Notes: generated by a model from the letters alone, not told the origin. A stretch of 59,853 nucleotides of DNA, filler included, from Sphacelaria rigidula (GCA_964200075.2; 7 parts of 7 records of this genome joined end to end with filler, not necessarily neighbours in it), one strand, 5' to 3'. Shown: positions 1,638 through 59,853, numbered from the whole stretch's first letter. Numbers and translations: made by a program.

Positions 1638-2609
1638 ATGGCTACCGGTTCGCGAGGTACGTCCACCGTGACACCCGTGGTCATGCGGAAAGAGTTGCGA
1701 CCTCCCCAAGACGGGGACAGGTACTCAAAGAGCGCATCTCGCACTTCTTACACGAGGTATTTGGAATACAAGAAGCGCGTAGAGCACGCTAATGCAGGGG
1801 GTGCCGTGCGGCATCAGGTGGTGACAATGGCTCAACAAGTGCCAACTCATGTGCAGAGAGTGTTCGCTCGTTTGGACATAATGAGAGCACTATCACCCCG
1901 CCGCAATTGGTTGCGGCGATCAAAAAGCATGCTGGGCATGCGGCGGGCGCCGAGGTAGATCTGACCCAAGCGTCCGCGGCCGTGGCGAAAGCTGTCGCCA
2001 TGGGTTCTCGGGGGAAAACGATGTTAGAGCTTGTGGAGCCCATCATCTCGGCCGATTTGCAAACATACTTCACGGAAAATCCGAACGTAGAAGTAGTATA
2101 TCGTTCCCCCGATGGTGAGTTCATTCCCAGCCCGGCAGCAGTAATGACTAAGGCTTTGGTGGAGATTGGCACCGGAACATTTCAAGCAAGCCGTGCTTAT
2201 TAAGCTGCAGCACCAAACAGACTGGAAGGCCGACCCTTACCTGGTGATTAGCACCGTCGTGGCCGAGGCCATGGAGTGGCGGAAAATAGAGGTGTTCGGC
2301 CAGGCGTCCACCTCTTCGCCGAAATCTTTGCGCAACCATGGCTCGAAATCGACCGGTTGCGCCGCGAGTATTACTTGCCACCGCTGTGGTCAGGTCGGCC
2401 ATTTCGCGCGGGATTGCCCAATGTCTTCCGGTGGAGAGTCTGGGCAGTCTAGTGCCGCGCGCCATCAGCATCGCCAGCGCAAGGGCAAAAGGCGAAGCAA
2501 TCGTGGTGGCGGCGGCGGATCCTCCGGCGATGGAGGGTCGCAGGCGAGCCCTCAGCAGCAGCTGCAGCAGCAGCAGAACCACCAGCAGCAGCAGGGGCAG
2601 CGGTGTTAG
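1638..2609 (+). pseudogene. gag: gag, frameshifted, with zinc knuckle
   Basis: Overlapping ORFs 1638-1958, 1907-2203 and 2166-2609. CHRCGQVGHFARDC CCHC knuckle and Gln-rich tail. Confidence 0.85.
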
Positions 2610-2939
2610 CATGGGCCTGACTCTGGGTCCGGCGCCGCCGTAGGTGCTGCTGCTCCGCAACGGGCGGTGCAGGTGAGCCCGACTTCTACAGAGTCGAACA
2701 CTGCGCCGGCGCCGGTGGTGGCGCCGGCGGCGACAACGGCAGCAGCGCCAGGCGCGACCCCTGTTGACGCGCTGGTCGGAGGGTCGCCAAATTCTTGGTT
2801 TGCGGGCTGGGGGACGCACCCGCCGGCCGTGCCGTTTGAACCTGCCGGGGCGTCTTCGCTTGCGCAGCTTGCGCAGCTTGCGCAGCCGTGGCGTCAAGTG
2901 GGATCAGCGTCGCATAGGTCAGCGGAAGAAGTTCCCGTG

Positions 2940-5625
2940 GAGCTTGCCGACATATACATTCCGGCGGACTTATATCTTCAGAATCAAGGGCAGCGTGGAG
3001 CCATTGCGGTTTGGTCTGTGTTGGATTCTGGCCCCCATTTCACTAGTCTGCCGGTGAAGATGGTTGAGATGCTGGAGCGACAATTCCCGGGTGTGCCCGC
3101 TGCGCATCCCCTTTCCGCTCGGGGCGTGGCAGGCAGTCACCGCGTCAGGTCAGCATGTTTCAGTCACGGAGCGTTCTGTTCCGTTGCAGCTAGCCTTTGC
3201 CTTCAACACTACTTGGGGGCTGGCGCCGTTACCTCCGATCTCGTTTGCGATTCTGCCAGTGTCGGATGGCGTTGTTCTTCTGGGGCTGCCGACGCTACAG
3301 GATCTAGTAGTCGATCCGTATGAGCGGTTGAAAGACTCCATCAAGACGCGGATGTCTCCACCTGGTCCGCACGTGGAGACGCCCGCCTTTTTGGGCAGTC
3401 GTCGCGTGAGCTTGTCGGTGGATGCTTTTCAGGAGGCTGGAGGGCAGGTGACCGAAGAGCGGGATGCGGTGGTGAAACGCTCGGTAGAGCGCGGCCCGGA
3501 GATGTTAATGATTCCGGCGCATGAGGAATCCGCTCGGAAAGTCGTGCTGGAGGAGAGCGTGACGAATGCTGGGGCGAAAAGCCTCAGCGTCTCAAAAGCG
3601 GAGCGCCTGCGCGGTGTATTGCATTGCCGCGTCAATGCGTTTCGTCGTGCGCTGCGGGGTGATCCCCCTGCCCGCGTGGAGCCCATGCGTGTCCAGCCAA
3701 AACTTGGGGCGTCCGCGGTGAAGACGAAGCCGCGGCGGTACGATCCAGTGAAGTCGAGTTGGTTGACATTATGCATGGCGGCTCTTTTGGCGCTCGGGTT
3801 GGTATTACGGAATATGCAGGCGGGGTGGTCCAGTCCAGATATGGCGTTTCCGAAGAAGGCTGTATCGCAGACGGAGGGCAGGCTGCAGGCGTGGGCGGCA
3901 GCGAAGGATCTGGTGGCTGATGCAGTGACGCTGCTTCATCCCCGTCCTCATTGTCGGGTGTTTTTATGTTTCCGGATGCATCTGAGTGCTTTTGAGGTAG
4001 TTTGGTGATGCAGATGTCTACAGTTGAACTTCAATTGCCTGTTCGCACTGTGGCTGTGTATGGTCCTTGTGAAGCTGATGACTTGATGCCGTTCAAATGT
4101 GTTGTCCGCCAAGCGCAACGAAAAAAACTCGGGGCCGAAGATACGGATGTGCAATCTTTCGAGTTGCACGTCGGCAGTGCTATCTTGGACAATGAAGGTC
4201 TGTTTCGTGTGCATGTGCGTGGCCGAAACGTTTTGTGGGTTCCGAGTTCTGACGAGCAGTTGCAGGTACGTCTGATGATTTGCGCGCACATGCGCGACGC
4301 CGGGCATCGTGGTGTGGCTGCGACGCTCGTGCGCTTGCAAGACTTTTATGTCTGGCAGGGGATAGAAACTCATGTGCACGAATTTGTCCGCTAGTGTCTT
4401 CACTGTGCTGACTCGAGGGCGGGTGATGTTGTTCCCCGCCCGCTCGGTGAAACGGCCCATGGGACCACGCCGAATGAAGTCGTTCATTTTGACTTCTTAC
4501 ACGTGGGCGAGAGTGGCCCGCTAGCTTCCCAAGGTTTGTCGGAGGATGCTGGGTTCCGGTACATTTTGGTCAACATGGATGATTTGCGCAACTTCGTGGC
4601 TCTGGAACCAGTAGACGTGTATACTGCCGAATCGACCGCTGCATCTCTGCTAAATTGGTGCAAAACGTAGGGGGTGCCGTGTGTGTGGGTGAGTGACACC
4701 GCCACGCATTTCAACAATGCGATCTTGGCCCGATTGCGAGAGGCTTTGCGCGTTGATCACCGGTTTGCGGTAGCTGGTCTAACGGTACGTGCGAACGCAT
4801 GGTAAAGGAAGCAGTTCGTGCTTTTCTCTCTATTCTTCTCGAGCAGCGTAGAGCGGTTTCCGATTGGGTGGAAGTGTTGCTGGCGGTGCAATGGGCGCTC
4901 AATACAGCGTATCGTCGTCGTTACGATAGTACGCCGTACCACGTGATGTTTGGTCGTGCCCCTCGGACGTCTTTCTCGGTGCTGGCGTCTTCGTCGGCGG
5001 GGAATGGAAGTGTGATGTTCTGGACGATGTTTAAATTAAGAGTGCATTGCAAGGAGTCTTGGACTTACAAGAACGTTGCCATGTTCAAGTGCAGGAGCGT
5101 GTTGCCGCTGAACGTGCGTGTAGACGTGAGGGGTCCTCGTCGGGGCTGGAATTGCCGAATTTTGAGGTAGGCGACTATGTCGTGTATGCACGTGTGCGTC
5201 GTCCGGGCGTTACGCCCAAGTTGATGACGACGTGGACTGGTCCATGGAGAGTGGTTGGTGCTCACCACCCGCACGTGTTTGAGATTCAGAACATTGTTTC
5301 GGGTCGTGTTCAGACCACCCATGAAGCTCGTTTGCGTTTGTATGCAGACTCGCAGCTTAATGTTACGGCTGACATTAAGGACGGGTTCCAGCATGCTTTT
5401 AATCAGGGGCAATTTCAGATGGCTGGTACTGTCCGAGTGGCAGAAGCAGATGATCGTTCGTAAATCGTGTTGGTCGACTGGGTTGGTTTCGAAGTTGAGG
5501 AGCGTACGTGGGAGCCTTTCAAGGACATTTTTGAGGCCGCTCCGAATTTTCTTACGAAGGAGTTGCGTAAAATGCGCGTGACTCGTGCCGTTGCTGCTCG
5601 CATTCCGAATGAGTTTGGTATTTAG
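2940..5625 (+). pseudogene. pol: pol remnant: protease, truncated RT/RNase H, integrase, chromodomain
   Basis: VLDSG protease motif (~3021). WSSP..FPKK joined directly to the connection region AKDLVADAVTLLHP. FPDAS RNase H start. Integrase HMRDAGHRG...CLHC and VHFDFLHV. KLMTTWTGPWRV. Chromodomain LVDWVGFEVEERTWEP. Multiple stops and frameshifts. Confidence 0.88.
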
Positions 5626-8466: not shown

Positions 8467-8566
8467 NNNNNNNNNNNNNNNNNNNNNNNNNNNNNNNNNN
8501 NNNNNNNNNNTTAATTAATTAANNNNNNNNNNNNNNNNNNNNNNNNNNNNNNNNNNNNNNNNNNNN
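8467..8566. other. artificial contig spacer
   Basis: N run + TTAATTAATTAA + N run, 100 nt. Confidence 0.98.
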
Positions 8567-17031: not shown

Positions 17032-17131
17032 NNNNNNNNNNNNNNNNNNNNNNNNNNNNNNNNNNNNNNNNNNNNTTAATTAATTAANNNNNNNNNNNNN
17101 NNNNNNNNNNNNNNNNNNNNNNNNNNNNNNN
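17032..17131. other. artificial contig spacer
   Basis: N run + TTAATTAATTAA + N run. Confidence 0.98.
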
Positions 17132-17529
17132 AGTGAAGAACGGTACTCCAGAGAAACTCAGAAAAAAGGACACCTACGAATTCTGAAAGCTTCTGACGCT
17201 GACAACTATACAGTACTATATTCACGTGTGAATCCTACTTGCAGGTTAACTCGCCATCCTGTTCTTTTCCACGAGACATCAATTCAATCCTCATCTTCGG
17301 GATTTCTTCAAACCCCTTCATAATTTGTAGAGAATGATCAGCACAGCCAAGGACGACTTTGATATCGCTTGAGGTAAAAGATACACAACATTGAAAAGAG
17401 CTCATAAACCGTGTACTCATTGCTTACCCTTTCTCCCCTTTTTCTGCACGAGGTATCTCCATGAGGTCTTTCTCTTCATGTTCCTGGAGTACGTCTATCT
17501 TGTGACCAGGGCGAGATACGTCGCGAATC

Positions 17530-25596: not shown

Positions 25597-25696
25597 NNNN
25601 NNNNNNNNNNNNNNNNNNNNNNNNNNNNNNNNNNNNNNNNTTAATTAATTAANNNNNNNNNNNNNNNNNNNNNNNNNNNNNNNNNNNNNNNNNNNN
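25597..25696. other. artificial contig spacer
   Basis: N run + TTAATTAATTAA + N run. Confidence 0.98.
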
Positions 25697-51289: not shown

Positions 51290-51389
51290 NNNNNNNNNNN
51301 NNNNNNNNNNNNNNNNNNNNNNNNNNNNNNNNNTTAATTAATTAANNNNNNNNNNNNNNNNNNNNNNNNNNNNNNNNNNNNNNNNNNNN
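51290..51389. other. artificial contig spacer
   Basis: N run + TTAATTAATTAA + N run. Confidence 0.98.
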
Positions 51390-51429
51390 CTTTGAGAAAC
51401 TAAGAAATTACGGATTCTGCATACTTCTG

Positions 51430-52473
51430 ACGCTGACGACTGTACACAGTCCCGAACAGCAACACCTCCTGATGGCGGCACACTATCCTCATCAAACACC
51501 CCGCGGCGCAACAGTGGAGACACCGCCGCCATCGCCGCCAAATACGCCAAAGCTGTCTATGTGAACAGCAATGCACACGACCACCCCAGCACCACGCGAC
51601 GCTCGTTGTCGCCGCCCGAATTGTGATCGCTAGCTTCATCACGAGGTTGCAGCTCGCTCTGCGTACCCGCTTGACGCGGGTCACACGCTCCTGTTGTTTC
51701 GTTCATGCAAGACGTGTCCACAGCTACACGCTGCTCCGGTGGCAATTCCGCCTACCCGGCATCCGCCTGTCCTTCAAGCAGACACCCCTGCGAGTCATCT
51801 AAATAAACTCCCGCCGAATCTCTGGAGCAGATAGACTCGCCCCGAGTATCGCAAGCCCCAAGCTTGCTCTGCTCACGCACATCACGAAGATAAGACCCCG
51901 TTGCAGCGGTGGGCATACTCTCCGGGCAACCCATGCAAGGTGTGTCCCCAACCACGCGCTGGTCCGGCGAACACAAGCAACCAGGGCCTTCACCTCTCAG
52001 CGCTAGCTCATCGGAGCAAATTGGCTTCGCGCTTCCAACAGCAGGGGCAGCAGCGGCGGGATCAAATATCCCCGCTTTAGTCACCACCTCCTGCTCAGCG
52101 CACTGCTGAACGGCAACAGCGGCAGCTGAGCTGCCTGTATTCCCTTCGAGCTGCGTGGCATGTCCGCTCACTTCAACAGCAATGCCAGCAGCATCTAAAC
52201 CAATGCTAACTGTGGTACTGTCGGCGGGCGCGCTCTAATGCCTACCCGCTTTGACAGACACGTGCTGTGTCTCCTTCCCGCTCTGCATAGTGGAAACATC
52301 TGCCCTGTATCGTTGCTTCAGACGCGCACTACCGACTGCACGTTCAGCGGGTGCACTGTCGTGCCTGTTCCCTCTGGCAGACACATGTTTCTCGGCTTTC
52401 AGAGTGCAAGCAGCTGCCCTGTATCGTTGTTTCAGACGCGCAGCACCTACTGCACGTTCGGCGGGTGCACTGT
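51430..52473 (-). pseudogene. Gag-derived unit A, 3' part (repeats, Ala/Cys-rich region, hydrophobic segment)
   Basis: One reading frame with isolated stops through the ORFs starting at 52171, 51745 and 51550. Joins 57141 once the LINE is removed. Confidence 0.72.
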
Positions 52474-53275
52474 GCGATCACTGCAGGCTCGTTCGTAATG
52501 TCGCCGTCCACCTTCAACCCCCCAACTCGCCGGACTCTGACCGAAACATCGTGTGCGCCCCAGTACGGCTCCTTGGTCGCTTCGCACACAACAGACCTAG
52601 ACGAATCCCAACTGGGCGTACACCGATCGACAGACGGGCAATAGCATCTGACCCCGTCAGACGTGAGCAGCTCACCCAGCTCATCATCAGCGAGCTCGAA
52701 CAGAGTATACCTGGTGATACAGTCGGCAGCTCACTGGCTACACACTTTGCCGACGTACGCTTGAGTGCCGCTGAAAAGGTGGTACCCCGTCTGACCCGAA
52801 AGCCACGTACACCGGTGTGGTTCGAGGATGCTGAAATCAAAGCGGAAATCGGAATCGCTTGGATGGAGAGATAAAGGGCGAGATCAACAGTGAAACTGGC
52901 GTCATCTCGAGATAAACTCGCATGGCGAACTTTGCGAACAGCATGAAAAAAACAAGTGATCCAAGCTGGGGTTGATAAATATATGGATGTATAGGAAGTG
53001 GGGCGCCGACGGCGCGGAGGGTATATGCTAGAGAACTAGGGGAGCATACCCGAGCGGGGGACATGAGAGAATGGTACAGACATCTCAACGGAGGATGGAG
53101 ACTGTCTGGACGACCAACCGAGAGTGAACAATACATTCGAGATGAGTACGGTAATTTACTGCGGGACAGAGGTTTGATCAGTGGGAGATGGGAACGTTAC
53201 TTTTCTACATTTCTGAACGCCATACCGGCAACTATCGACCGCACCATCATCGAGAAGATTGCTCAACGACCAATA

Positions 53276-54899
53276 CACACGCGGCCATTCGGCTACCTGT
53301 GGAGGATTTTGTAAAACGAAACCCTCCCTAACGTCCGTTTTTAAAATGCCCTCTAGAGGATATTGGGCATTTGTAATCCTCTAGAGGGTTTTCAAGGTTG
53401 GGGTCTCCCTCGAACGTCTGTGTCGAACTCCTCTCGATTTTTTTTGAAGCACGCGCATGCTATGGAAAACGCAATTTGTACAACCTCTGCTGTTCGAAAG
53501 AAATCCTTCATACCCGACGTCGGGCAGAACGGATTTATTTCGAACAGCACAGGCTGTACAAATCCCATATACACTGGTAGGTGATATTTGTAAAGCAAAA
53601 GCTGTTCAAAACAATCTTCCGTTTGCCCATCAATTCATCCTGTAATTGAGCAAAGGAAAGACTTGTTTACGAGCAGCCTCTGCTGCTCAACTCCCACATA
53701 CGAGTGTATGTTCACACGGCCGCGCTATGCAGCACTAGCCGGTGGGTATATGATGGAAGGGGACATACCTTGCTCTTGTATGCCTACAGGTTTTAAAAAC
53801 CCCGTAGTCCGTGGTCTACCAATCGAACATAAACAGCAAAACATGTTTTTCATGCATGTACTTTGATATGACCAAAACGAGAATGAGCACGCGGTTTGGT
53901 GCTGTATATACTGGACTGCGTACAATACCATACAGGACAGCAGTATTATATATCGTGCTTACACATGTACGGTGCAATATACTGCAGAGTTATAGCGTGG
54001 CATATGGGCTACGTATCGCTGTACAGAGTGGATGCTCGTAACTTTGCGTACATGGGGGTGTGTTATATACCATCGGCTACTGCAGTATAGACCACCGCGC
54101 GTGTTCTTGCAGCATGCAATCAACTGCCGTCAGTAGGACGTGAAAGGGAAGCGGACAAAGTATACAGTACAGACAGCGCAGGACTAGGTATGTTTTCTGT
54201 TCACAGTGAGACGTGCAAATGACTTGAACAGCGTGCGCAGCTTTGTCTATGGCTGCACTGTCCATGATTACTCGAGTGTGTACGCAGTAAGCCGCGGTCA
54301 TTCCCCGCACCCTCTGTACCCCGCGTGGTGCCGCCGCCGCGCCTGTGCCCAACCCGTGTTCTTTCCTGCAGGGTTGTGGTGGTAGCTGGGAATAAGGGTT
54401 GTGCGGGGTTTGCATGGTTCGATCTGTGAACGTGNNNNNNNNNNGTGAACGTGGCGCGTAATAAACTACCACAAGATTGCTGGGGTATGCATTTCACAGC
54501 AGCAGCGATATGGTCATGTATATATCGGACTGATTCGGGAAACTCGAGGAGTACTCACTGGAGCATCAGATGCCCTCGAGAGGATTCATTGATGTCCATT
54601 CCAGAGGGATGAAACACCCCTACAGAGTATTCAGACCTCAGAAGTAAGTCACTGGAGCATCAGATGCCCTCGAGAGGATTCGTTGATGTCCATTTCAGAG
54701 GGATGAAACACCTCTAGAGGGTATTTAGACCTCAGAAGTCACTGGAGCTTCAGATGCCCTCCAGAGGATTCGTTTATATCCATTCCAGACGGATGGAATA
54801 CCTCTAGAGAGTATTATACCCTCCAGAGGGTCATTTACCCACCAGAGGATGAAAATCACGATAGAGGATTTCCAAACAGGGGCCGAATGACCGCGTGTG
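53276..54899. mobile_element. non-autonomous DNA transposon with TA TSD (Tc1/mariner-type target)
   Basis: 18-bp TIRs CACACGCGGCCATTCGGC / GCCGAATGACCGCGTGTG (17/18), TA on both sides. Removal restores the LINE frame QRPIASSLEDPP. Confidence 0.92.
54556..54830. repeat. ~90-94-bp tandem repeat, three units
   Basis: cactggagc.tcagatgccctc.agaggattc at 54556, 54650 and 54740. Confidence 0.88.
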
Positions 54900-56797
54900 T
54901 AGCGTCGTCACTAGAAGACCCACCAAGCCTAAGTGAAACTGTGGAGGCTCTGAGAGCTATGCCGAACGGCAAAGCAACCGGTCCGGATGGTATTCCTGCT
55001 GAAATCCTGAAGCTTAGACTCAACGCGGAGGCGTCGGACATTTTGTACCACTTCCACGACATCGTCTCTGCGGTTTGGACATCTGGCGAGGTGCCGCAAG
55101 AATGGAAACATGTCACCATCAAAGTCCTACACGAAAAACAAGATAGGACCCAGTGCAGTAACTACAGAGGTATTTCACTTGTGGCACATACTGCTAAAGT
55201 TCTCCTCAAACTCGTAGCCAACAGGCTCGGTGATTTTTGTGAGGAAACAGATGTCTTCCCGGAAGAGCAGTGTGGATTTAGGCGCCAAAGAACGATCACA
55301 GATATGATGTTCGTAGTACGCCGACTCCAGGAGTTCAAACGGGCGAGCAACATCCCAATAGACATATGCTTTATCGATCTGCAGAAAGCCTACGATTTTG
55401 TAGACTGCACACCCCCGTGGGAACTGCTTGCTCGGTTCAGAGTCCCGTCGCGAATGATCAAGATCATCCATATGTTTCACCACGGTATGCGAGCTTGAGT
55501 ACAGCTAGATAGTGGCGAAACATCAGCGTGGTTCGACGTCTGCCTGGGACTCGGACAAGGTTGCGTTTCGTCTCTACTGTTGTTCCATATCTTCGGAGCA
55601 GGTTTGGTGGAAGTAATCGTCCAACGGTTTGCGGTGGACCCACTCATCGCCTCAGATTTGGTCTTTCTAGATGATGCGCCAAAAGGTGTCGGTGGTGAAC
55701 CCGTGGAAGAGACACCACTGGAAAAGGTGCGACGCGCGGTGTGGGCAATGCTTCATGCGGACGACCCCGGCATAGCCTCGAAGACCTCAGAAGGCCTTGC
55801 TCGAATGATGGCCGTGATAGTGATGACCTGCCAGGAATTTGGCCTGATGGTCTCCGAGACCAAGACAAAGTCCATGCGCCTTTGGTCAGTACCCAGGTCA
55901 ACATAGGCCACCCTGGATATCAGAGCTGCCGGTCAACAGTATAAGCAGACGGGGAGGTTCATCTACGTTGGTGGAGCCATCAGCGCAGATGCGAAATGTC
56001 CACCGAAATCAACCGCCGTATCAGCGCGGCTTGGGTGCGTATCCAAAAATATAGCTCCCAATTCTACAACCGACCCAACGCCGAGCTATCCTTGAAAGTT
56101 CGACTGCTTAAAGCGGAGGTGATGGAAGCTTTGTTGTATAGGTGTGCCACATGAACGCTACGTCCTGAGGACTTCGACAGTCTGCGCACTGCTCATCACA
56201 AGGTCTTGCTGCGAGTGGTTGGATTCCGCAGGAACGATCGTAATGGCTACAAGATTTTTTTCGTACGGAGCGATGCCCGAGATGACCAACTGCGAACGTA
56301 TCGAGACGACTATCCGCAAACGTCAAACCTGGTTCACAGGAGCCCTTGTCCGGCAGAAGGACACACGCCTTCCCAAGCGTGTCATGAACGGTCGGCTTTC
56401 CACACGAGGACCAAAGGAGGTCGGCCGCCCCCCTAAGCAATGGGACGATACCCCAGAGGACAACCTACGTGCGCTAGGGGCTGTCCCGCACAAAAGAGCC
56501 CGACGAAAGTGGTTTGTCTACGGTGTAGAGGTCAACGATGCATACGATTGGGTCACTGCGGCGAAGGACCTGGGCAAATTGCATATTGGAGTCGAAAAGG
56601 GAGCCGAAGAGTTTGAGGACACGTGGCGACGCGCGGACAAGCGAGAATCAGACCGACGTCACAAGCGAGAGGCTGCTACGTCGAGGGCTGCCAGTCGAAA
56701 AATCCTGTGTCCTCTCATATCGGCTGTTGATTACGTCCTTAGTCGGTGGCTCCGATGTGCCCACTGGTGTGTGTCTGTATCTATTCTGCTGCCATGA
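54900..56797 (+). pseudogene. LINE reverse transcriptase, disrupted
   Basis: ORFs 54887-55498, 55580-55906 and 56144-56797, separated by stops and frameshifts. Confidence 0.9.
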
Positions 56798-57140
56798 ATC
56801 CCTTACGCCCCCCCCCTTTTTTTAATCGTTTCATTGTATTTTTTCTGTATTTGCGTTGTACTTTCCTCTTGTTTTCCTTTCTCTTGCTTTAAGTCGGCCA
56901 TTTCTTTCTGTGCTTTGCTTGTGTTGAATTTATTACTTTTTTTTGTCACGACTTAGTCTGCGATATCGTTCTGTTCAACCCCTCTATTTTTTCTGTTCCC
57001 CTTTTTTTCTGTTCCCTTTTTGCTTTTTTTCCTTAGAGCGTGTTTGAATTTGTTTTTCTTGGGTACACCTTTCATGAGACCACGGCTGGACCCGTTGTAG
57101 GTCAGATAAAGTGCGACAACCAATCTTTTAATCAAACTGT

Positions 57141-57640
57141 CGTGCCTGTCCTCTCGGGCAGACACACGCTTCTCGCCCTTCACAGTGCATGCGGGAGCGC
57201 CCTCATGCCTGTCCCCTCCGACAGACACGTGCTGTGTGACCAGTGCGCGCTTCACAGTGCGATGCACCCCACCGGACGGCGCATGCTTGCGCAGCACGAA
57301 AAGCAGCTGCTCCTGCCCAACATCATAAGCATTCTCCAAGAACGTGTCACAAATGTCTCGGCATGAGGTCAGAAACTGCTGTCACCTCAAAGAGGTTTGT
57401 CCACCGTGCGTTCACCTGATCTTCATCTCGCACATACTTCTCGTATTTCCGCAGAACCTCAGCTGATTTCTCACTCGGAAAACTGCGGCCGTAATACGGC
57501 ATCTCCAGCGCCAGTACAGGAACAACACGACCATCGACGATAGCATATTGCTGCGCCTCATCATTTTGAACAGTCGAACAAGCTTTGCCGCTACCTCCAC
57601 GCTTTTCATCAAGCACCGAGCCACCACGACATGTGTACAT
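57141..57640 (-). pseudogene. Gag-derived unit A, 5' part (Gag N-terminal half)
   Basis: LEMPYYGRSF....RKYEKY...VSDLMPRH...LRKHA aligns with LKAPEYGRHF...QKYVEY...VTELVPKH...LGRHA of the gag at 32819. Confidence 0.75.
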
Positions 57641-58384
57641 AGTGGATAATCACAAAGCAGCACCTCAACAGCTCAACAGCGCATCCAGAAAAACCAGCGT
57701 TGTTGCTCAATCACAGAAACAACAAGTTTCCATAGACCAAGACACGCTTGGCCACCAAACGACAACGGCAACAGCGCCTCTTCCTCACGCAGGGTTCACC
57801 ACGTGTTTGAAGTCCTTAGACTCCTTAATGCGGCTGGCCAAGCTTGAGCCAGCCCTTTCGCAATTCTACCCTCTCAAGTAGTAATTGCGCCGCATTTTTT
57901 CTGGCAGACTCTCCCGGCAACCAAGCTGGTGATCAATCGATACCGAAACGCACCCTAGCACTACCTCAGAACCTTCTCGGCTCTACTCCTGCCATCCTCC
58001 TGCGCGCTACCATCCTTCCAGAAGGCTTCTTCCCTTCAGTTGCTTTGGCTTATATGATGACCAGCGCCTCTCTTTCCGCCGCTTCCTTCCCTCCTGTTTT
58101 CCAACGTAAGCGTCACCCGCTTTACAGACTGTGGAGTGCAGCTTCAAAACCTAGATCCAGAAACGACAAATTTCCTGAGTAAACCTTTATTTTGAACCTA
58201 CCTCTCAGCAGAACAAGGTTACAGTGGTGCTCCAGAGGCTTCCTCCCTGTCACGGGCTCTAGAGACTTCAAAGACTCAAGCAGTGAAACACACAGCAGTT
58301 TTCCGTTAACCAGAAGTGGTAACCTTGCACCTCGTGTGCAAACATCGTGCATCACAGAGTCCACCGATCATACTCTCAGATCCT

Positions 58385-59853
58385 TTATCCATCAAACCAG
58401 ACAATAAACGCCTGCCATGGATTCTCTCCACTGCGGTCATGTACTGAATCAAGGTAAAAATGTTGCCCGAAATCTAAATCTCTCGCCATGTCACTGGCGC
58501 AGATAGATTGACCATGAGCACGGCAAGCTCCAAGCTCACCCTGCTCGTTCGCAACACGCGAATAACACCCCCCCGCAGGTTCGAGCATACGAGGAGTATC
58601 TCCAGCTATGCGCTGGTCCGACGGCAACAAGCAACTGGGATCTCCGCCCACCAGTACTTGCTCATTGGCCCATCTAGGCCTCGCCCTCTCAACATCACCA
58701 ACAGCAGCAGTAGTATCAACCATATTCGCTACAGCCGCCACCTCCTGCTCAGCGCACTCCTGAACGGCAACAGCGGCAGCTGAGCTGCCTGCAGCTACTC
58801 GAGCTGCGTGACATATTCGTCTTCTCCAGCAGCAATGCCAGCAGCATCAAAACCAATGCTAACCGTGGTACTATCGGCGGGCGCGCTCTCATGCCTACCC
58901 GCTTTGTCAGACACGTGCTGTGTCTTCTTTCCGCTCGGCACAATGGAAACATCTGCCCTGTATCGTTGCTTCAGACGCGCCCTACCGACTGCACGTTCGG
59001 CGGGTGCACTATCGTGCCTGTTCCCTCTGGCAGACACATGTTTCTCGGCTTTCAGAGTGCAAGCATCTGCCATGTGTCGTTGCTTCAGACGCGAACCACC
59101 TACTGCACGTTCGGCGGGTGCACTATCGTGCCTATCCCCTCGGGCAGACACATGCTGCACTGTGGTGCCTGTCCCCTCGAGCAGACACATGTTTCTCGGC
59201 TTCCACAGTGCAAGCAACTGCCCTGTATCATTATTTCAAACGTGGACCACCTACTGCAAGTTCAGCGGGTGCACTGTCGTGCCTGTCCCCTCGGGCAGAC
59301 ACATGCTGCTCGGCCTTCACAGTGAAATCATCTGCCCTGTATCGTTGCTTCAGCAACGCACCACTACTACATGTTCGGCAAGCGCATGGTCGTGCCTGTC
59401 CCCTCTGGCAGACACATGCTTCTCGGCTTTCAGAGTGCAAGCATCTGCCCTGTGTCGTTGCTTCAGACGTGGACCACCTACTGCACGTTCGGCGGGTGCG
59501 CTATCGTGCCTATCCCCTCGGGCAGAAAGCACATGCTGCACTGTGGTGTCTGTCCCCTCGAGCGGACACATATTTCTCGGCTTTCACAGTGCAAGCAACT
59601 GCCCCGCATCATTATTTCAAACGTGAACCACCTACTGCACGTTCAGCAGTTGCACTATCGTGTCTGTCCCCTCGGGCAGTCACATGGTCCTCGGCCTTCA
59701 CAGTGCCATGCACCCCATTCGACGATGCATGCTTGCGCAAAGCGAAAAGGATTTGCTCGTTCTCAATATCATAATCAGGATCCAAGAACGCCTCACACAG
59801 ACATTTCGCAATATGTTTCGGCATGAGGTCAGAAACTGCTGCCACTTCAAAGA
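58385..59853 (-). pseudogene. Gag-derived unit B (Gag fragment, repeats, Ala/Cys-rich region), runs off the window
   Basis: AVSDLMPKH...LRKHA followed by HVSARGDRHDSAPAERAVGG.RLK repeats and a region homologous to 51800-52250. Confidence 0.75.
58900..59705. repeat. ~114-bp (some ~151-154-bp) tandem repeat, about 6-7 units
   Basis: ctgcc.tgt.tc.tt..ttca recurs at about 58953, 59067, 59218, 59332, 59445 and 59599. Confidence 0.9.

What the first reader, a model, noticed from the sequence alone, without database searches (positions are those of the whole stretch)
51430..59853. Gag N-terminal domain fused to RGD-bearing 38-aa repeats, a Cys-containing region and a hydrophobic segment
Seen: removing the LINE at 52474-57135 joins a minus-strand coding unit, now carrying stops and frameshifts. 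It begins with the N-terminal half of the local Ty3-type Gag (up to LRKHA). In place of the C-terminal capsid half and zinc knuckle come repeats of HVSARGDRHDSAPAERAVGGPRLKQRHRADACTLKAEK (at least five RGD in unit B), an Ala/Cys-rich region with an internal PP(D/E)QRV..DTPCM repeat, and VVLGWSCALLFTWTGLAYLAAMA. Copies lie at 28008-28885, 51430-57640 and 58385-59853. Their stops fall at different codons and an 18-nt indel keeps frame, so the ancestor was probably open. Inference: a retroelement-borne chimeric protein, possibly membrane-anchored, accessory or a Gag decoy. I do not recognise this architecture. Any integrin-binding role for the RGD is speculation.
Basis: partly seen in the sequence, partly recalled or inferred. 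Interest (0 to 1): 0.72.

Follow-up and report, generated by a model that had tools for sequence, protein, structure and literature searches.

The report
Dead copies of Gag-fusion repeat element
This stretch holds broken copies of a multi-copy algal repeat whose ancestor probably carried one long reading frame, starting with the front part of a retrotransposon coat protein (Gag) and running into unrelated sequence, but nothing shows that the protein still works or ever sat in a membrane.

Summary
On the minus strand of the last segment (51390-59853) lie two same-direction copies, A and B, of one unit. It has about 125 codons homologous to the N-terminal part of an LTR-retroelement Gag (hhalign 93.8%, E 1.7e-7, ending at RHA). 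Then come 114-nt (38-codon) tandem repeats, an Ala/Cys-rich stretch with an internal duplication, and a hydrophobic helix. Copy A is split by a 4.66-kb LINE with a target-site duplication. A third, 5'-cut copy (C) lies at 28007-28588.

The functional reading is not supported:
- Differences between copies show no codon-position bias.
- B's array grew as DNA, duplicating a 381-nt block together with its stops and frameshifts.
- RGD is absent from A.
- The only database relative of the tail lacks the cysteines and the hydrophobic stretch.
- No LTRs or element ends could be defined.

The window is seven unlinked pieces, so "local" Gag is not adjacent.

Best reading: a decayed, multi-copy, probably non-autonomous retroelement derivative with a Gag-fusion ORF. 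Moderate interest.

The parts
59696..59853 (-). Unit B: last ~50 codons of the Gag-like N-terminal domain. It runs off the segment end and is intact where A has a 14-nt deletion.
   Evidence: D8/D9: 78-93% identical to 57250-57393.
58812..59695 (-). Unit B repeat array. Units start at 59686, 59572, 59532, 59418, 59305, 59191, 59154, 59040 and 58926, with spacing 114, 40, 114, 113, 114, 37, 114, 114. A 381-nt higher-order block was duplicated together with its two stops (K**) and its +1 partial unit.
58479..58870 (-). Unit B Ala/Cys region. It has a 1-nt deletion, and homology to A and C stops at 58478.
57650..58478 (.). Spacer between B and A: repeated DNA of unknown kind, with the presumed 5' leader of A at its lower end. 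No protein family matched and it has no similarity to the 3' part of the unit.
57250..57640 (-). Unit A Gag-like N-terminal domain, from ATG 57640. A private 14-nt deletion near 57352 shifts the frame.
57136..57249 (-). Unit A first repeats: a 63-nt partial unit and the first 33 nt of the unit split by the LINE.
52476..57135 (+). 5'-truncated LINE inserted into a repeat unit of A. Reverse transcriptase lies at 54707-55903; the target duplication is about GCAC(G)ACAGT.
   Evidence: RVT_1, E 4.9e-11 and 2.3e-6.
52235..52475 (-). Unit A remaining repeats, all in frame with the N-terminal part and with the tail.
51596..52234 (-). Unit A Ala-rich stretch and two PP(D/E)QRV..DTPCM..GACD modules. It has private TAG stops at 52238-52240 and 51752-51754 and an 18-nt in-frame insertion.
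51527..51595 (-). Unit A hydrophobic stretch, broken by a private TAG (51557-51559). Nearly all related contigs read TGG there.
   Evidence: (place 51558).
51447..51526 (-). Unit A tail after the helix. Homology to copy C ends at 51447, inside the codon that is the TGA stop in C.
51390..51446 (.). End of a different high-copy repeat that abuts unit A. Its + strand ends ...CTGTACA, and the same terminus occurs at 17175-17212.
   Evidence: (loose ends at 51444).
28007..28588 (+). Copy C in another segment of the window. It is 5'-cut and covers the Cys modules, the helix (28442-28510), the tail and the TGA stop (28586-28588). One internal TAG in 193 codons.
32819..33555 (+). Reference Gag-like ORF (P0001), 78% identical to P0012, which goes on into a zinc knuckle and a protease.
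1668..5622 (+). Related decayed retroelement in segment 1: Gag-like part, zf-CCHC, protease-like part, integrase H2C2 and a weak chromodomain.

Best explanation
The segment holds two dead, same-direction copies (a third lies in another segment) of a multi-copy repeat unit that descends from a defective retroelement.

In the progenitor, the 3' half of gag and all of pol of a chromovirus-like Ty3-type element had been replaced by foreign sequence joined in frame. This gave one ORF of roughly 500 codons: Gag N-terminal domain, then 38-codon repeats, then an orphan Ala/Cys-rich tail ending in a helix.

Shown:
- The Gag homology.
- The order of the parts in several copies.
- The multi-copy state.
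- Lesions that are private to each copy.
- An open frame in the common ancestor of the copies.

Inferred:
- The unit could not move by itself and was copied by proteins of autonomous relatives.
- The 5' gag piece survived because retroelement RNAs carry packaging signals there, and perhaps because a Gag N-terminal domain lets the product join the helper's particles.
- The 114-nt array now behaves as a plain minisatellite, and the RGD, cysteines and hydrophobic helix are not maintained features.
For: Gag homology:
- Profile-profile match of the unit's N-terminal family to the Gag family: 93.8%, E 1.7e-7, 90 columns, ending at RHAKCW.
- P0012 carries the same N-terminus followed by zf-CCHC (E 1.1e-4) and a weak aspartic-protease match.
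- The segment-1 relative has Integrase_H2C2 (E 5.3e-7) and a weak chromodomain.

Family trait and copy number:
- A, B and P0007 share the order N-terminus, repeat, Ala-rich stretch.
- Tens of distinct contigs per position in three DNA-type runs at 80-99% likeness.
- Only 10 of 1.84 billion representative proteins match the N-terminus at E <= 0.001. All are 57-242 aa, and none is a polyprotein.

Ancestral ORF:
- No stop is shared in this frame between A and C (193 codons) or between A and B (185 codons). Each of the other five frames has 1-8 shared stops.
- A composition-matched null gives P = 0.0007 for any stop-free frame over 942 nt.
- At A's TAG in the helix, 56 contigs carrying 31,904 of 32,391 depth units read TGG.
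- Indels of 18, 3 and 3 nt keep the frame.
- GC1 > GC2, as in the window's true element ORFs.

Decay and DNA-level growth of the array.
Against: - No LTR pair, primer-binding site or polypurine tract was found in the 8.46 kb, so the class of element and the way it moves are not shown.
- Neither end of the unit is defined: A is abutted by another repeat, and B runs off the segment.
- Only three copies could be compared. No whole genome was available, and scans of public contig collections found nothing.
- Each copy's own stop count is within chance (P 0.24-0.31), so the ancestral-ORF argument rests on stops not being shared.
- No autonomous element with a closely related N-terminus was found, so the helper is hypothetical.
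- In P0007 the one repeat unit is read in another frame than in A and B.
Confidence: 0.55

Rival explanations
1. Working accessory protein. Master copies elsewhere in the genome still encode the Gag-N-terminal/repeat/Cys/helix protein. It acts on retroelement particles (decoy, dominant-negative or hitch-hiking adaptor), possibly tethered to a membrane by the C-terminal helix.
For: - Ancestral open frame of about 500 codons.
- The ATG and the N-terminal motif are conserved in several outside ORFs.
- A confident single helix at residues 57-89 of the copy C ORF (pLDDT 80-93).
- Truncated Gag proteins that inhibit their own element are known: Ty1 p22 (abstract in the listing).
Against: - No third-position excess in differences between copies: 37/25/30, 49/51/50 and 38 of 115 at third positions for B-C. 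The same holds among repeat units: 16/11/15.
- The cysteines and the hydrophobic stretch are absent in P0013.
- RGD is absent in A.
- Hydropathy is 1.48 in C, below the usual 1.6.
- No signal peptide-like start, and no intact copy among the three.
Confidence: 0.1
2. Never a gene. The unit is non-coding repeat DNA (a 5' gag remnant plus a minisatellite plus filler), and the long frame is a by-product of GC-rich, repetitive composition.
For: - Per-copy stop counts are within chance.
This shows that composition alone makes long frames here.
- The array duplicated its own stops.
- No codon-position bias.
- No protein family matched any part of the tail.
Against: - P = 0.0007 for such a frame under a dinucleotide-matched null.
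- The frame is continuous with a bona fide Gag-homologous start.
- Three of four indels between A, B and C are multiples of 3.
Confidence: 0.17
3. A host gene family derived from a domesticated Gag fragment, multiplied by tandem or segmental duplication. The copies seen here are its pseudogenes.
For: - A and B lie head to tail, about 2.4 kb apart.
- No LTRs were found.
- The N-terminus is only 26-34% identical to the retroelement Gags of the window.
Against: - Tens of diverged contig variants per position, in the same range as the LINE next to it.
- Copy C is a 5'-cut fragment in an unrelated context.
- All database relatives are short ORFs on short contigs.
Confidence: 0.08

Closest known systems
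TR-GAG elements of plants (non-autonomous LTR retrotransposons that keep only a gag ORF; PMC4350172, abstract seen in the listing)
   Same: A short, multi-copy retroelement derivative without pol that keeps a gag-derived ORF and must rely on helpers.
   Different: TR-GAGs keep a whole GAG and have clear LTRs. This unit keeps only about the first 110-125 residues, has no zinc knuckle, is fused to unrelated sequence, and shows no LTRs.
Gag-fusion ORFs of defective transducing retroelements: maize Bs1 (passage and reference title in PMC7264820; the Bs1 paper itself is not held) and Gag-onc proteins of acutely transforming retroviruses (recalled)
   Same: The N-terminal part of Gag is joined in frame to foreign sequence in an element that has lost pol.
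   Different: In those cases the captured host gene is identifiable and copy number is low. Here no source of the tail was found, and the family is multi-copy.
Ty1 p22 and other truncated Gag inhibitors (PMC4599808, abstract in the listing)
   Same: A partial Gag that could interfere with particle assembly.
   Different: [quoted passage not shown] Here it is the N-terminal part, on a separate decayed unit, with no functional evidence.
env-like additional ORFs of Ty3-type elements (PMC7264820, passages)
   Same: A retroelement-borne ORF with a predicted membrane-type helix.
   Different: Those are separate ORFs between pol and the 3' LTR of autonomous elements. Here the helix is at the end of a Gag fusion, is borderline in hydropathy and is not conserved.

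Membership tests
Ty3/Metaviridae-type Gag | Sequence homology to the capsid-like N-terminal region of a retroelement Gag | tested here: met
   hhalign 93.8%, E 1.7e-7. tblastn 34% identity, E 1.5e-4. Pfam itself has no model that hits either family.
Ty3/Metaviridae-type Gag | Nucleocapsid zinc knuckle (CCHC) downstream of the capsid part | tested here: not met
   No zf-CCHC in any ORF of units A, B or C. It is present in P0012 and at 2148-2606.
Ty3/Metaviridae-type Gag | The reference Gag belongs to an element with protease, RT/RNase H, then integrase (Ty3 order) | tested here: inconclusive
   The protease match is weak (E 8.4e-4, below Pfam's cut-off). Integrase_H2C2 and a weak chromodomain occur in segment 1, but no RT was detected there.
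Ty3/Metaviridae-type Gag | Capsid fold | tested here: inconclusive
   The AlphaFold model of P0001 is all-helical but of low confidence (pLDDT 54, pTM 0.26). Foldseek against the PDB gave no match at E <= 0.001.
Non-autonomous LTR retrotransposon (TR-GAG / LARD type) | Long terminal repeats flanking the internal region | tested here: not met
   No direct repeat other than the 114-nt array and the A/B paralogy in 51390-59853. Only 8.46 kb is available and both ends of the unit are cut, so absence is not proven.
Non-autonomous LTR retrotransposon (TR-GAG / LARD type) | Primer-binding site and polypurine tract | not tested
   No tRNA gene in the window to compare with. By eye there is no purine run before 51447.
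Non-autonomous LTR retrotransposon (TR-GAG / LARD type) | Many dispersed copies without pol | tested here: met
   Contigs of three runs cover every part at 80-99% likeness. There is a third copy in another segment, and there is no pol domain between the N-terminus and the tail.
Transduced host gene fused to Gag (Bs1-like) | An in-frame junction between gag and the foreign part | tested here: met
   A and B read from LRKHA straight into the repeats in one frame.
Transduced host gene fused to Gag (Bs1-like) | An identifiable cellular source gene | tested here: not met
   No Pfam family. The only protein relative is P0013, a member of the same repeat family. Nothing in metagenome or viral contigs. 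The host genome could not be searched.
Membrane-anchored (env-like) retroelement protein | A conserved transmembrane helix | tested here: not met
   KD19 is 1.48 in C, 1.92 in A (with a stop inside the stretch) and 0.98 in P0013. 20% of 87 control ORFs reach 1.6. A helix is predicted in C.
RGD adhesion motif protein | RGD conserved across copies | tested here: not met
   7 RGD in B in local, shifting frames. None in the units of A, nor in the last full unit of B (RGN).

The most novel reading that the evidence does not exclude
Master copies of this family encode a protein that uses a Gag N-terminal domain to enter or poison the particles of chromovirus-like elements. A variable repeat spacer and a C-terminal helix tether the protein to a membrane. 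That would be a transposon-borne, membrane-anchored Gag decoy or hitch-hiking adaptor, of a kind not described for Ty3-type elements.
Probability: 0.08. Interest if true: 0.7.

Novelty: new variant of a known kind. Interest (0 to 1): 0.3.

Why it matters
If the progenitor ORF was real, this shows that an algal retroelement lineage produced and amplified a Gag-N-terminal fusion. That is the same route that gives Gag-fusion genes in defective retroviruses and in maize Bs1. It would offer a natural test of whether a Gag N-terminal domain alone is enough for a parasite element to ride on, or interfere with, its helpers.

As it stands, the copies are debris. The main practical value is for repeat annotation: the 114-nt array and the tail should be masked as one family, not called as genes.

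Tried and rejected
- Whole genome: none is held for this window, so genome-wide copy collection was impossible.
- The search for homologous proteins with P0007 (near lengths) found only P0007 itself. With the copy C ORF it found one relative.
- Metagenome contigs: a protein-pattern scan gave 524 pattern matches with 0 confirmed, and a 21-nt exact pattern gave 0. Viral contigs: 0.
- Earlier findings of this scan: nothing by place, sequence or words.
- Sequencing runs: no RNA holder is listed. One run guessed to be RNA (X11) has contigs over the stretch at 80% likeness or more, but DNA carry-over cannot be excluded, so there is no statement on expression.
- Loose ends at 51444: I first read them as the unit's own 3' end. 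Checking the direction convention against the loose end at 57052 showed that they belong to the neighbouring repeat, so that reading was dropped.
- Structure: both AlphaFold models have low confidence. Foldseek on the P0001 model gave only chance-level rows.
- ESM Atlas on P0005: best score 0.76, which is no lead (the first try, did not complete).
- PDB sequence search with P0012 hit only nucleocapsid zinc knuckles.
- Rfam found 0 families and ARAGORN 0 tRNAs in the window.
- The Bs1 paper is not held.
- I looked for a target-site duplication around copy C by eye and found none convincing.


Full report
**Setting.** The 59,853-base window is not contiguous. Pairs of 44-N runs around TTAATTAATTAA occur every ~8,565 bases and cut it into seven pieces. 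The finding is exactly the last piece, 51390-59853. The copy at about 28,000 and the 'local' Gag at about 32,800 lie in another piece. No whole genome is held for this window.

**Anatomy, read on the minus strand.**
- Unit B enters from the segment end at 59853. It holds the last ~50 codons of an N-terminal domain, a repeat array (59695-58812) and an Ala/Cys-rich stretch. Its homology to the other copies stops at 58478.
- After an 830-nt spacer, unit A starts at ATG 57640.
- A's first repeats end at 57136, where a LINE on the plus strand is inserted. RVT_1 lies at 54707-55495 (E 4.9e-11) and 55499-55903 (E 2.3e-6).
- The insert is flanked by an imperfect 10-nt duplication (57136-57145 / 52469-52475). 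Removing it joins codon to codon, because 57381-57136 is exactly 82 codons and the frame resumes at 52468.
- From 57381 to 51447 unit A is therefore one frame with three TAG stops. Upstream, a 14-nt deletion relative to B separates it from the first 97 codons (D8/D9 offsets 2446 and 2460).
- Copy C (28007-28588, plus strand) covers the last 193 codons with one internal stop and ends in TGA.

**The N-terminus is Gag-derived.**
- tblastn links residues 42-100 of A to ORF 32762-33403 (P0001) at 34% identity (E 1.5e-4).
- P0001 also matches 1695-2161, just upstream of a zf-CCHC ORF.
- P0012, an 880-aa database protein 78% identical to P0001, carries zf-CCHC (E 1.1e-4) and a sub-threshold aspartic-protease match with a DSG motif.
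- A profile of 11 unit N-termini against a profile of 6 Gag sequences gives 93.8% probability, E 1.7e-7 over 90 columns, ending at RHAKCW.
- The Ty3 assignment is indirect. The segment-1 relative has Integrase_H2C2 (E 5.3e-7) and a weak chromodomain (E 3.4e-4), but no RT was detected.
- A structure model of P0001 is all-helical but unreliable (pLDDT 54), and it found nothing in the PDB.

**The repeats.**
- TRF finds periods of 114 and 381 nt.
- In B the unit starts are spaced 114, 40, 114, 113, 114, 37, 114 and 114 nt.
- Two copies of a 381-nt higher-order block share the same pair of stops (K**) in the first unit and the same +1 partial unit. The array therefore grew after the frame was already broken.
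- I found eight full-length units. I left out the 113-nt unit and the one split by the LINE. Among the remaining six 114-nt units, variable columns fall 16/11/15 over codon positions (p = 0.61).
- RGD occurs in 7 units of B, each in its local frame. A's units read GGD, RED and RGN.
Frame length inside the array therefore says nothing.

**Was the ancestor open?**
- Copy by copy, the best frame is no more open than composition-matched random sequence (P 0.24-0.31).
- The lesions, however, are private. The other five frames have 4, 8, 3, 2, 2 and 1, 6, 2, 1, 2 shared stops.
- A stop-free frame over the 942 nt from 52387 to 51446 arose in 0.07% of 3,000 first-order Markov sequences.
- At the TAG inside A's hydrophobic stretch, 56 contigs of run X1 (31,904 of 32,391 depth units) read TGG, as copy C does.
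- Indels of 18, 3 and 3 nt keep the frame and one of 1 nt does not. A 3-nt deletion at 51474 is common among contigs.
- GC by codon position (0.65/0.53/0.56 in C) has the GC1 > GC2 shape of the window's real element ORFs.
- I take this as fair evidence for a progenitor ORF of roughly 500 codons.

**No sign of maintained function.**
- Differences between copies are spread evenly over codon positions: A-C 37/25/30 (p = 0.32), A-B 49/51/50 (p = 0.97), B-C 37/40/38 (p = 0.93). The B alignments include some non-homologous tail.
- That pattern is expected for copies that decay after insertion, so it neither proves nor excludes selection on the master.
- The only relative of the tail among 5.8 billion clustered proteins is P0013 (56% identity, from a 2.2-kb assembly contig). 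It has F, R, R and Y where A and C have cysteines. It has a charged stretch where they have the hydrophobic one, with a best 19-residue hydropathy of 0.98 against 1.48 in C.
- 20% of 87 window ORFs of 100-130 aa reach 1.6 by chance.
- AlphaFold gives one confident helix (residues 57-89) and an otherwise low-confidence chain for the C ORF.
- No Pfam family matches any part of the tail.

**Family and spread.**
- phmmer of the 100-aa N-terminus against 1.84 billion representatives finds 10 proteins at E <= 0.001. All are 57-242 aa, several share the start M(M)Y.C.GG, and none is a polyprotein.
- P0007 runs from the N-terminus through one repeat unit (in another frame) into the Ala-rich stretch, so the order of the parts is a family trait.
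- Contigs of three runs cover every bin of the segment at 80-99% likeness, with 20-60 distinct contigs at listed positions, similar to the LINE. Two of the runs carry one coded organism label and one is labelled algae metagenome.
- Public metagenome and viral contig collections hold nothing.

**Ends and class.**
- Homology between A and C stops at 51447, which is exactly where another very abundant repeat ends (51390-51446). The same terminus occurs at 17175-17212, and contigs diverge there.
- That repeat therefore abuts or is inserted at A's end, inside the codon that is TGA in C. The true 3' end of the unit is unknown.
- No long direct repeats other than the array and the A/B paralogy exist in the segment, so LTRs are not shown.
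- Rfam and tRNA scans are empty.

**Interpretation.** I favour (0.55) a decayed, multi-copy and probably non-autonomous derivative of a chromovirus-like element. Its progenitor carried a Gag-N-terminal fusion ORF. The copies seen here are dead, and the repeat array is a minisatellite.
- Retention of the 5' gag piece fits the known placement of packaging signals in the 5' end of retroelement RNAs (Ty1 TIPIRT; abstract in the listing). This is an inference, not a result.
- Rivals are a still-working accessory or decoy protein (0.10), a sequence that never coded (0.17) and a host gene family (0.08). The remainder is unassigned.
- The closest known things are TR-GAG elements, Bs1-type and retroviral Gag fusions, Ty1 p22 and env-like extra ORFs. 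The unit fails at least one defining feature of each.
- The searches behind 'not described' are only, and no repeat library could be compared by sequence.
- Supplements of the Ectocarpus transposable-element paper (PMC12477816; passages read) were not opened and may list such families.

Noticed in passing
window 8467-8566, 17032-17131, 25597-25696, 34162-34261, 42726-42825, 51290-51389: The window is not one contiguous stretch. It is seven pieces of about 8.46 kb joined by identical linkers (44 N, TTAATTAATTAA, 44 N), so distances and neighbourhood across pieces mean nothing.
   Followed up: yes
window 30864-32237 and 32819-33555 (+): Two Gag-like copies of the P0012-type element lie one after the other in segment 4. 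The first stops at about residue 404 of P0012 and the second starts afresh. This may be a nested or tandem insertion.
   Followed up: partly
window 1668-5622 (+): A decayed chromovirus-like element with a Gag-like part, zf-CCHC, a protease-like part, integrase H2C2 and a weak chromodomain. No reverse transcriptase was detected between the protease and the integrase.
   Followed up: partly
window 28414-31000 (-): A chain of long minus-strand ORFs (161, 163, 145, 129, 90 and 161 aa) in a stretch with strong GC skew (0.27). The only family hint is a weak Med27 match at 30262-30531. It overlaps the 3' part of copy C on the other strand.
   Followed up: no
window 51390-51446 and 17175-17212: A very high-depth repeat whose terminus (+ strand ...CTGTACA) sits at the start of two different segments. 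It looks like an LTR end.
   Followed up: partly
window 54555-54829 and 53474-53563: The LINE carries three 91-94-nt tandem repeats just upstream of its RT and a perfect-spacing 45-nt palindrome.
   Followed up: no
This is a composition effect of the repeat unit, not evidence of a gene.
   Followed up: yes
window 44291-44477; 45517-45800: Long G runs (29 and 80 nt) next to a 10-N gap, and a 142-nt tandem duplication.
   Followed up: no
proteins P0003, P0005-P0007, P0011: Outside relatives of the N-terminal domain carry internal duplications: a 14-residue VQQYV..DG block, and a whole second domain in P0003. The N-terminal part itself is therefore prone to tandem duplication.
   Followed up: no
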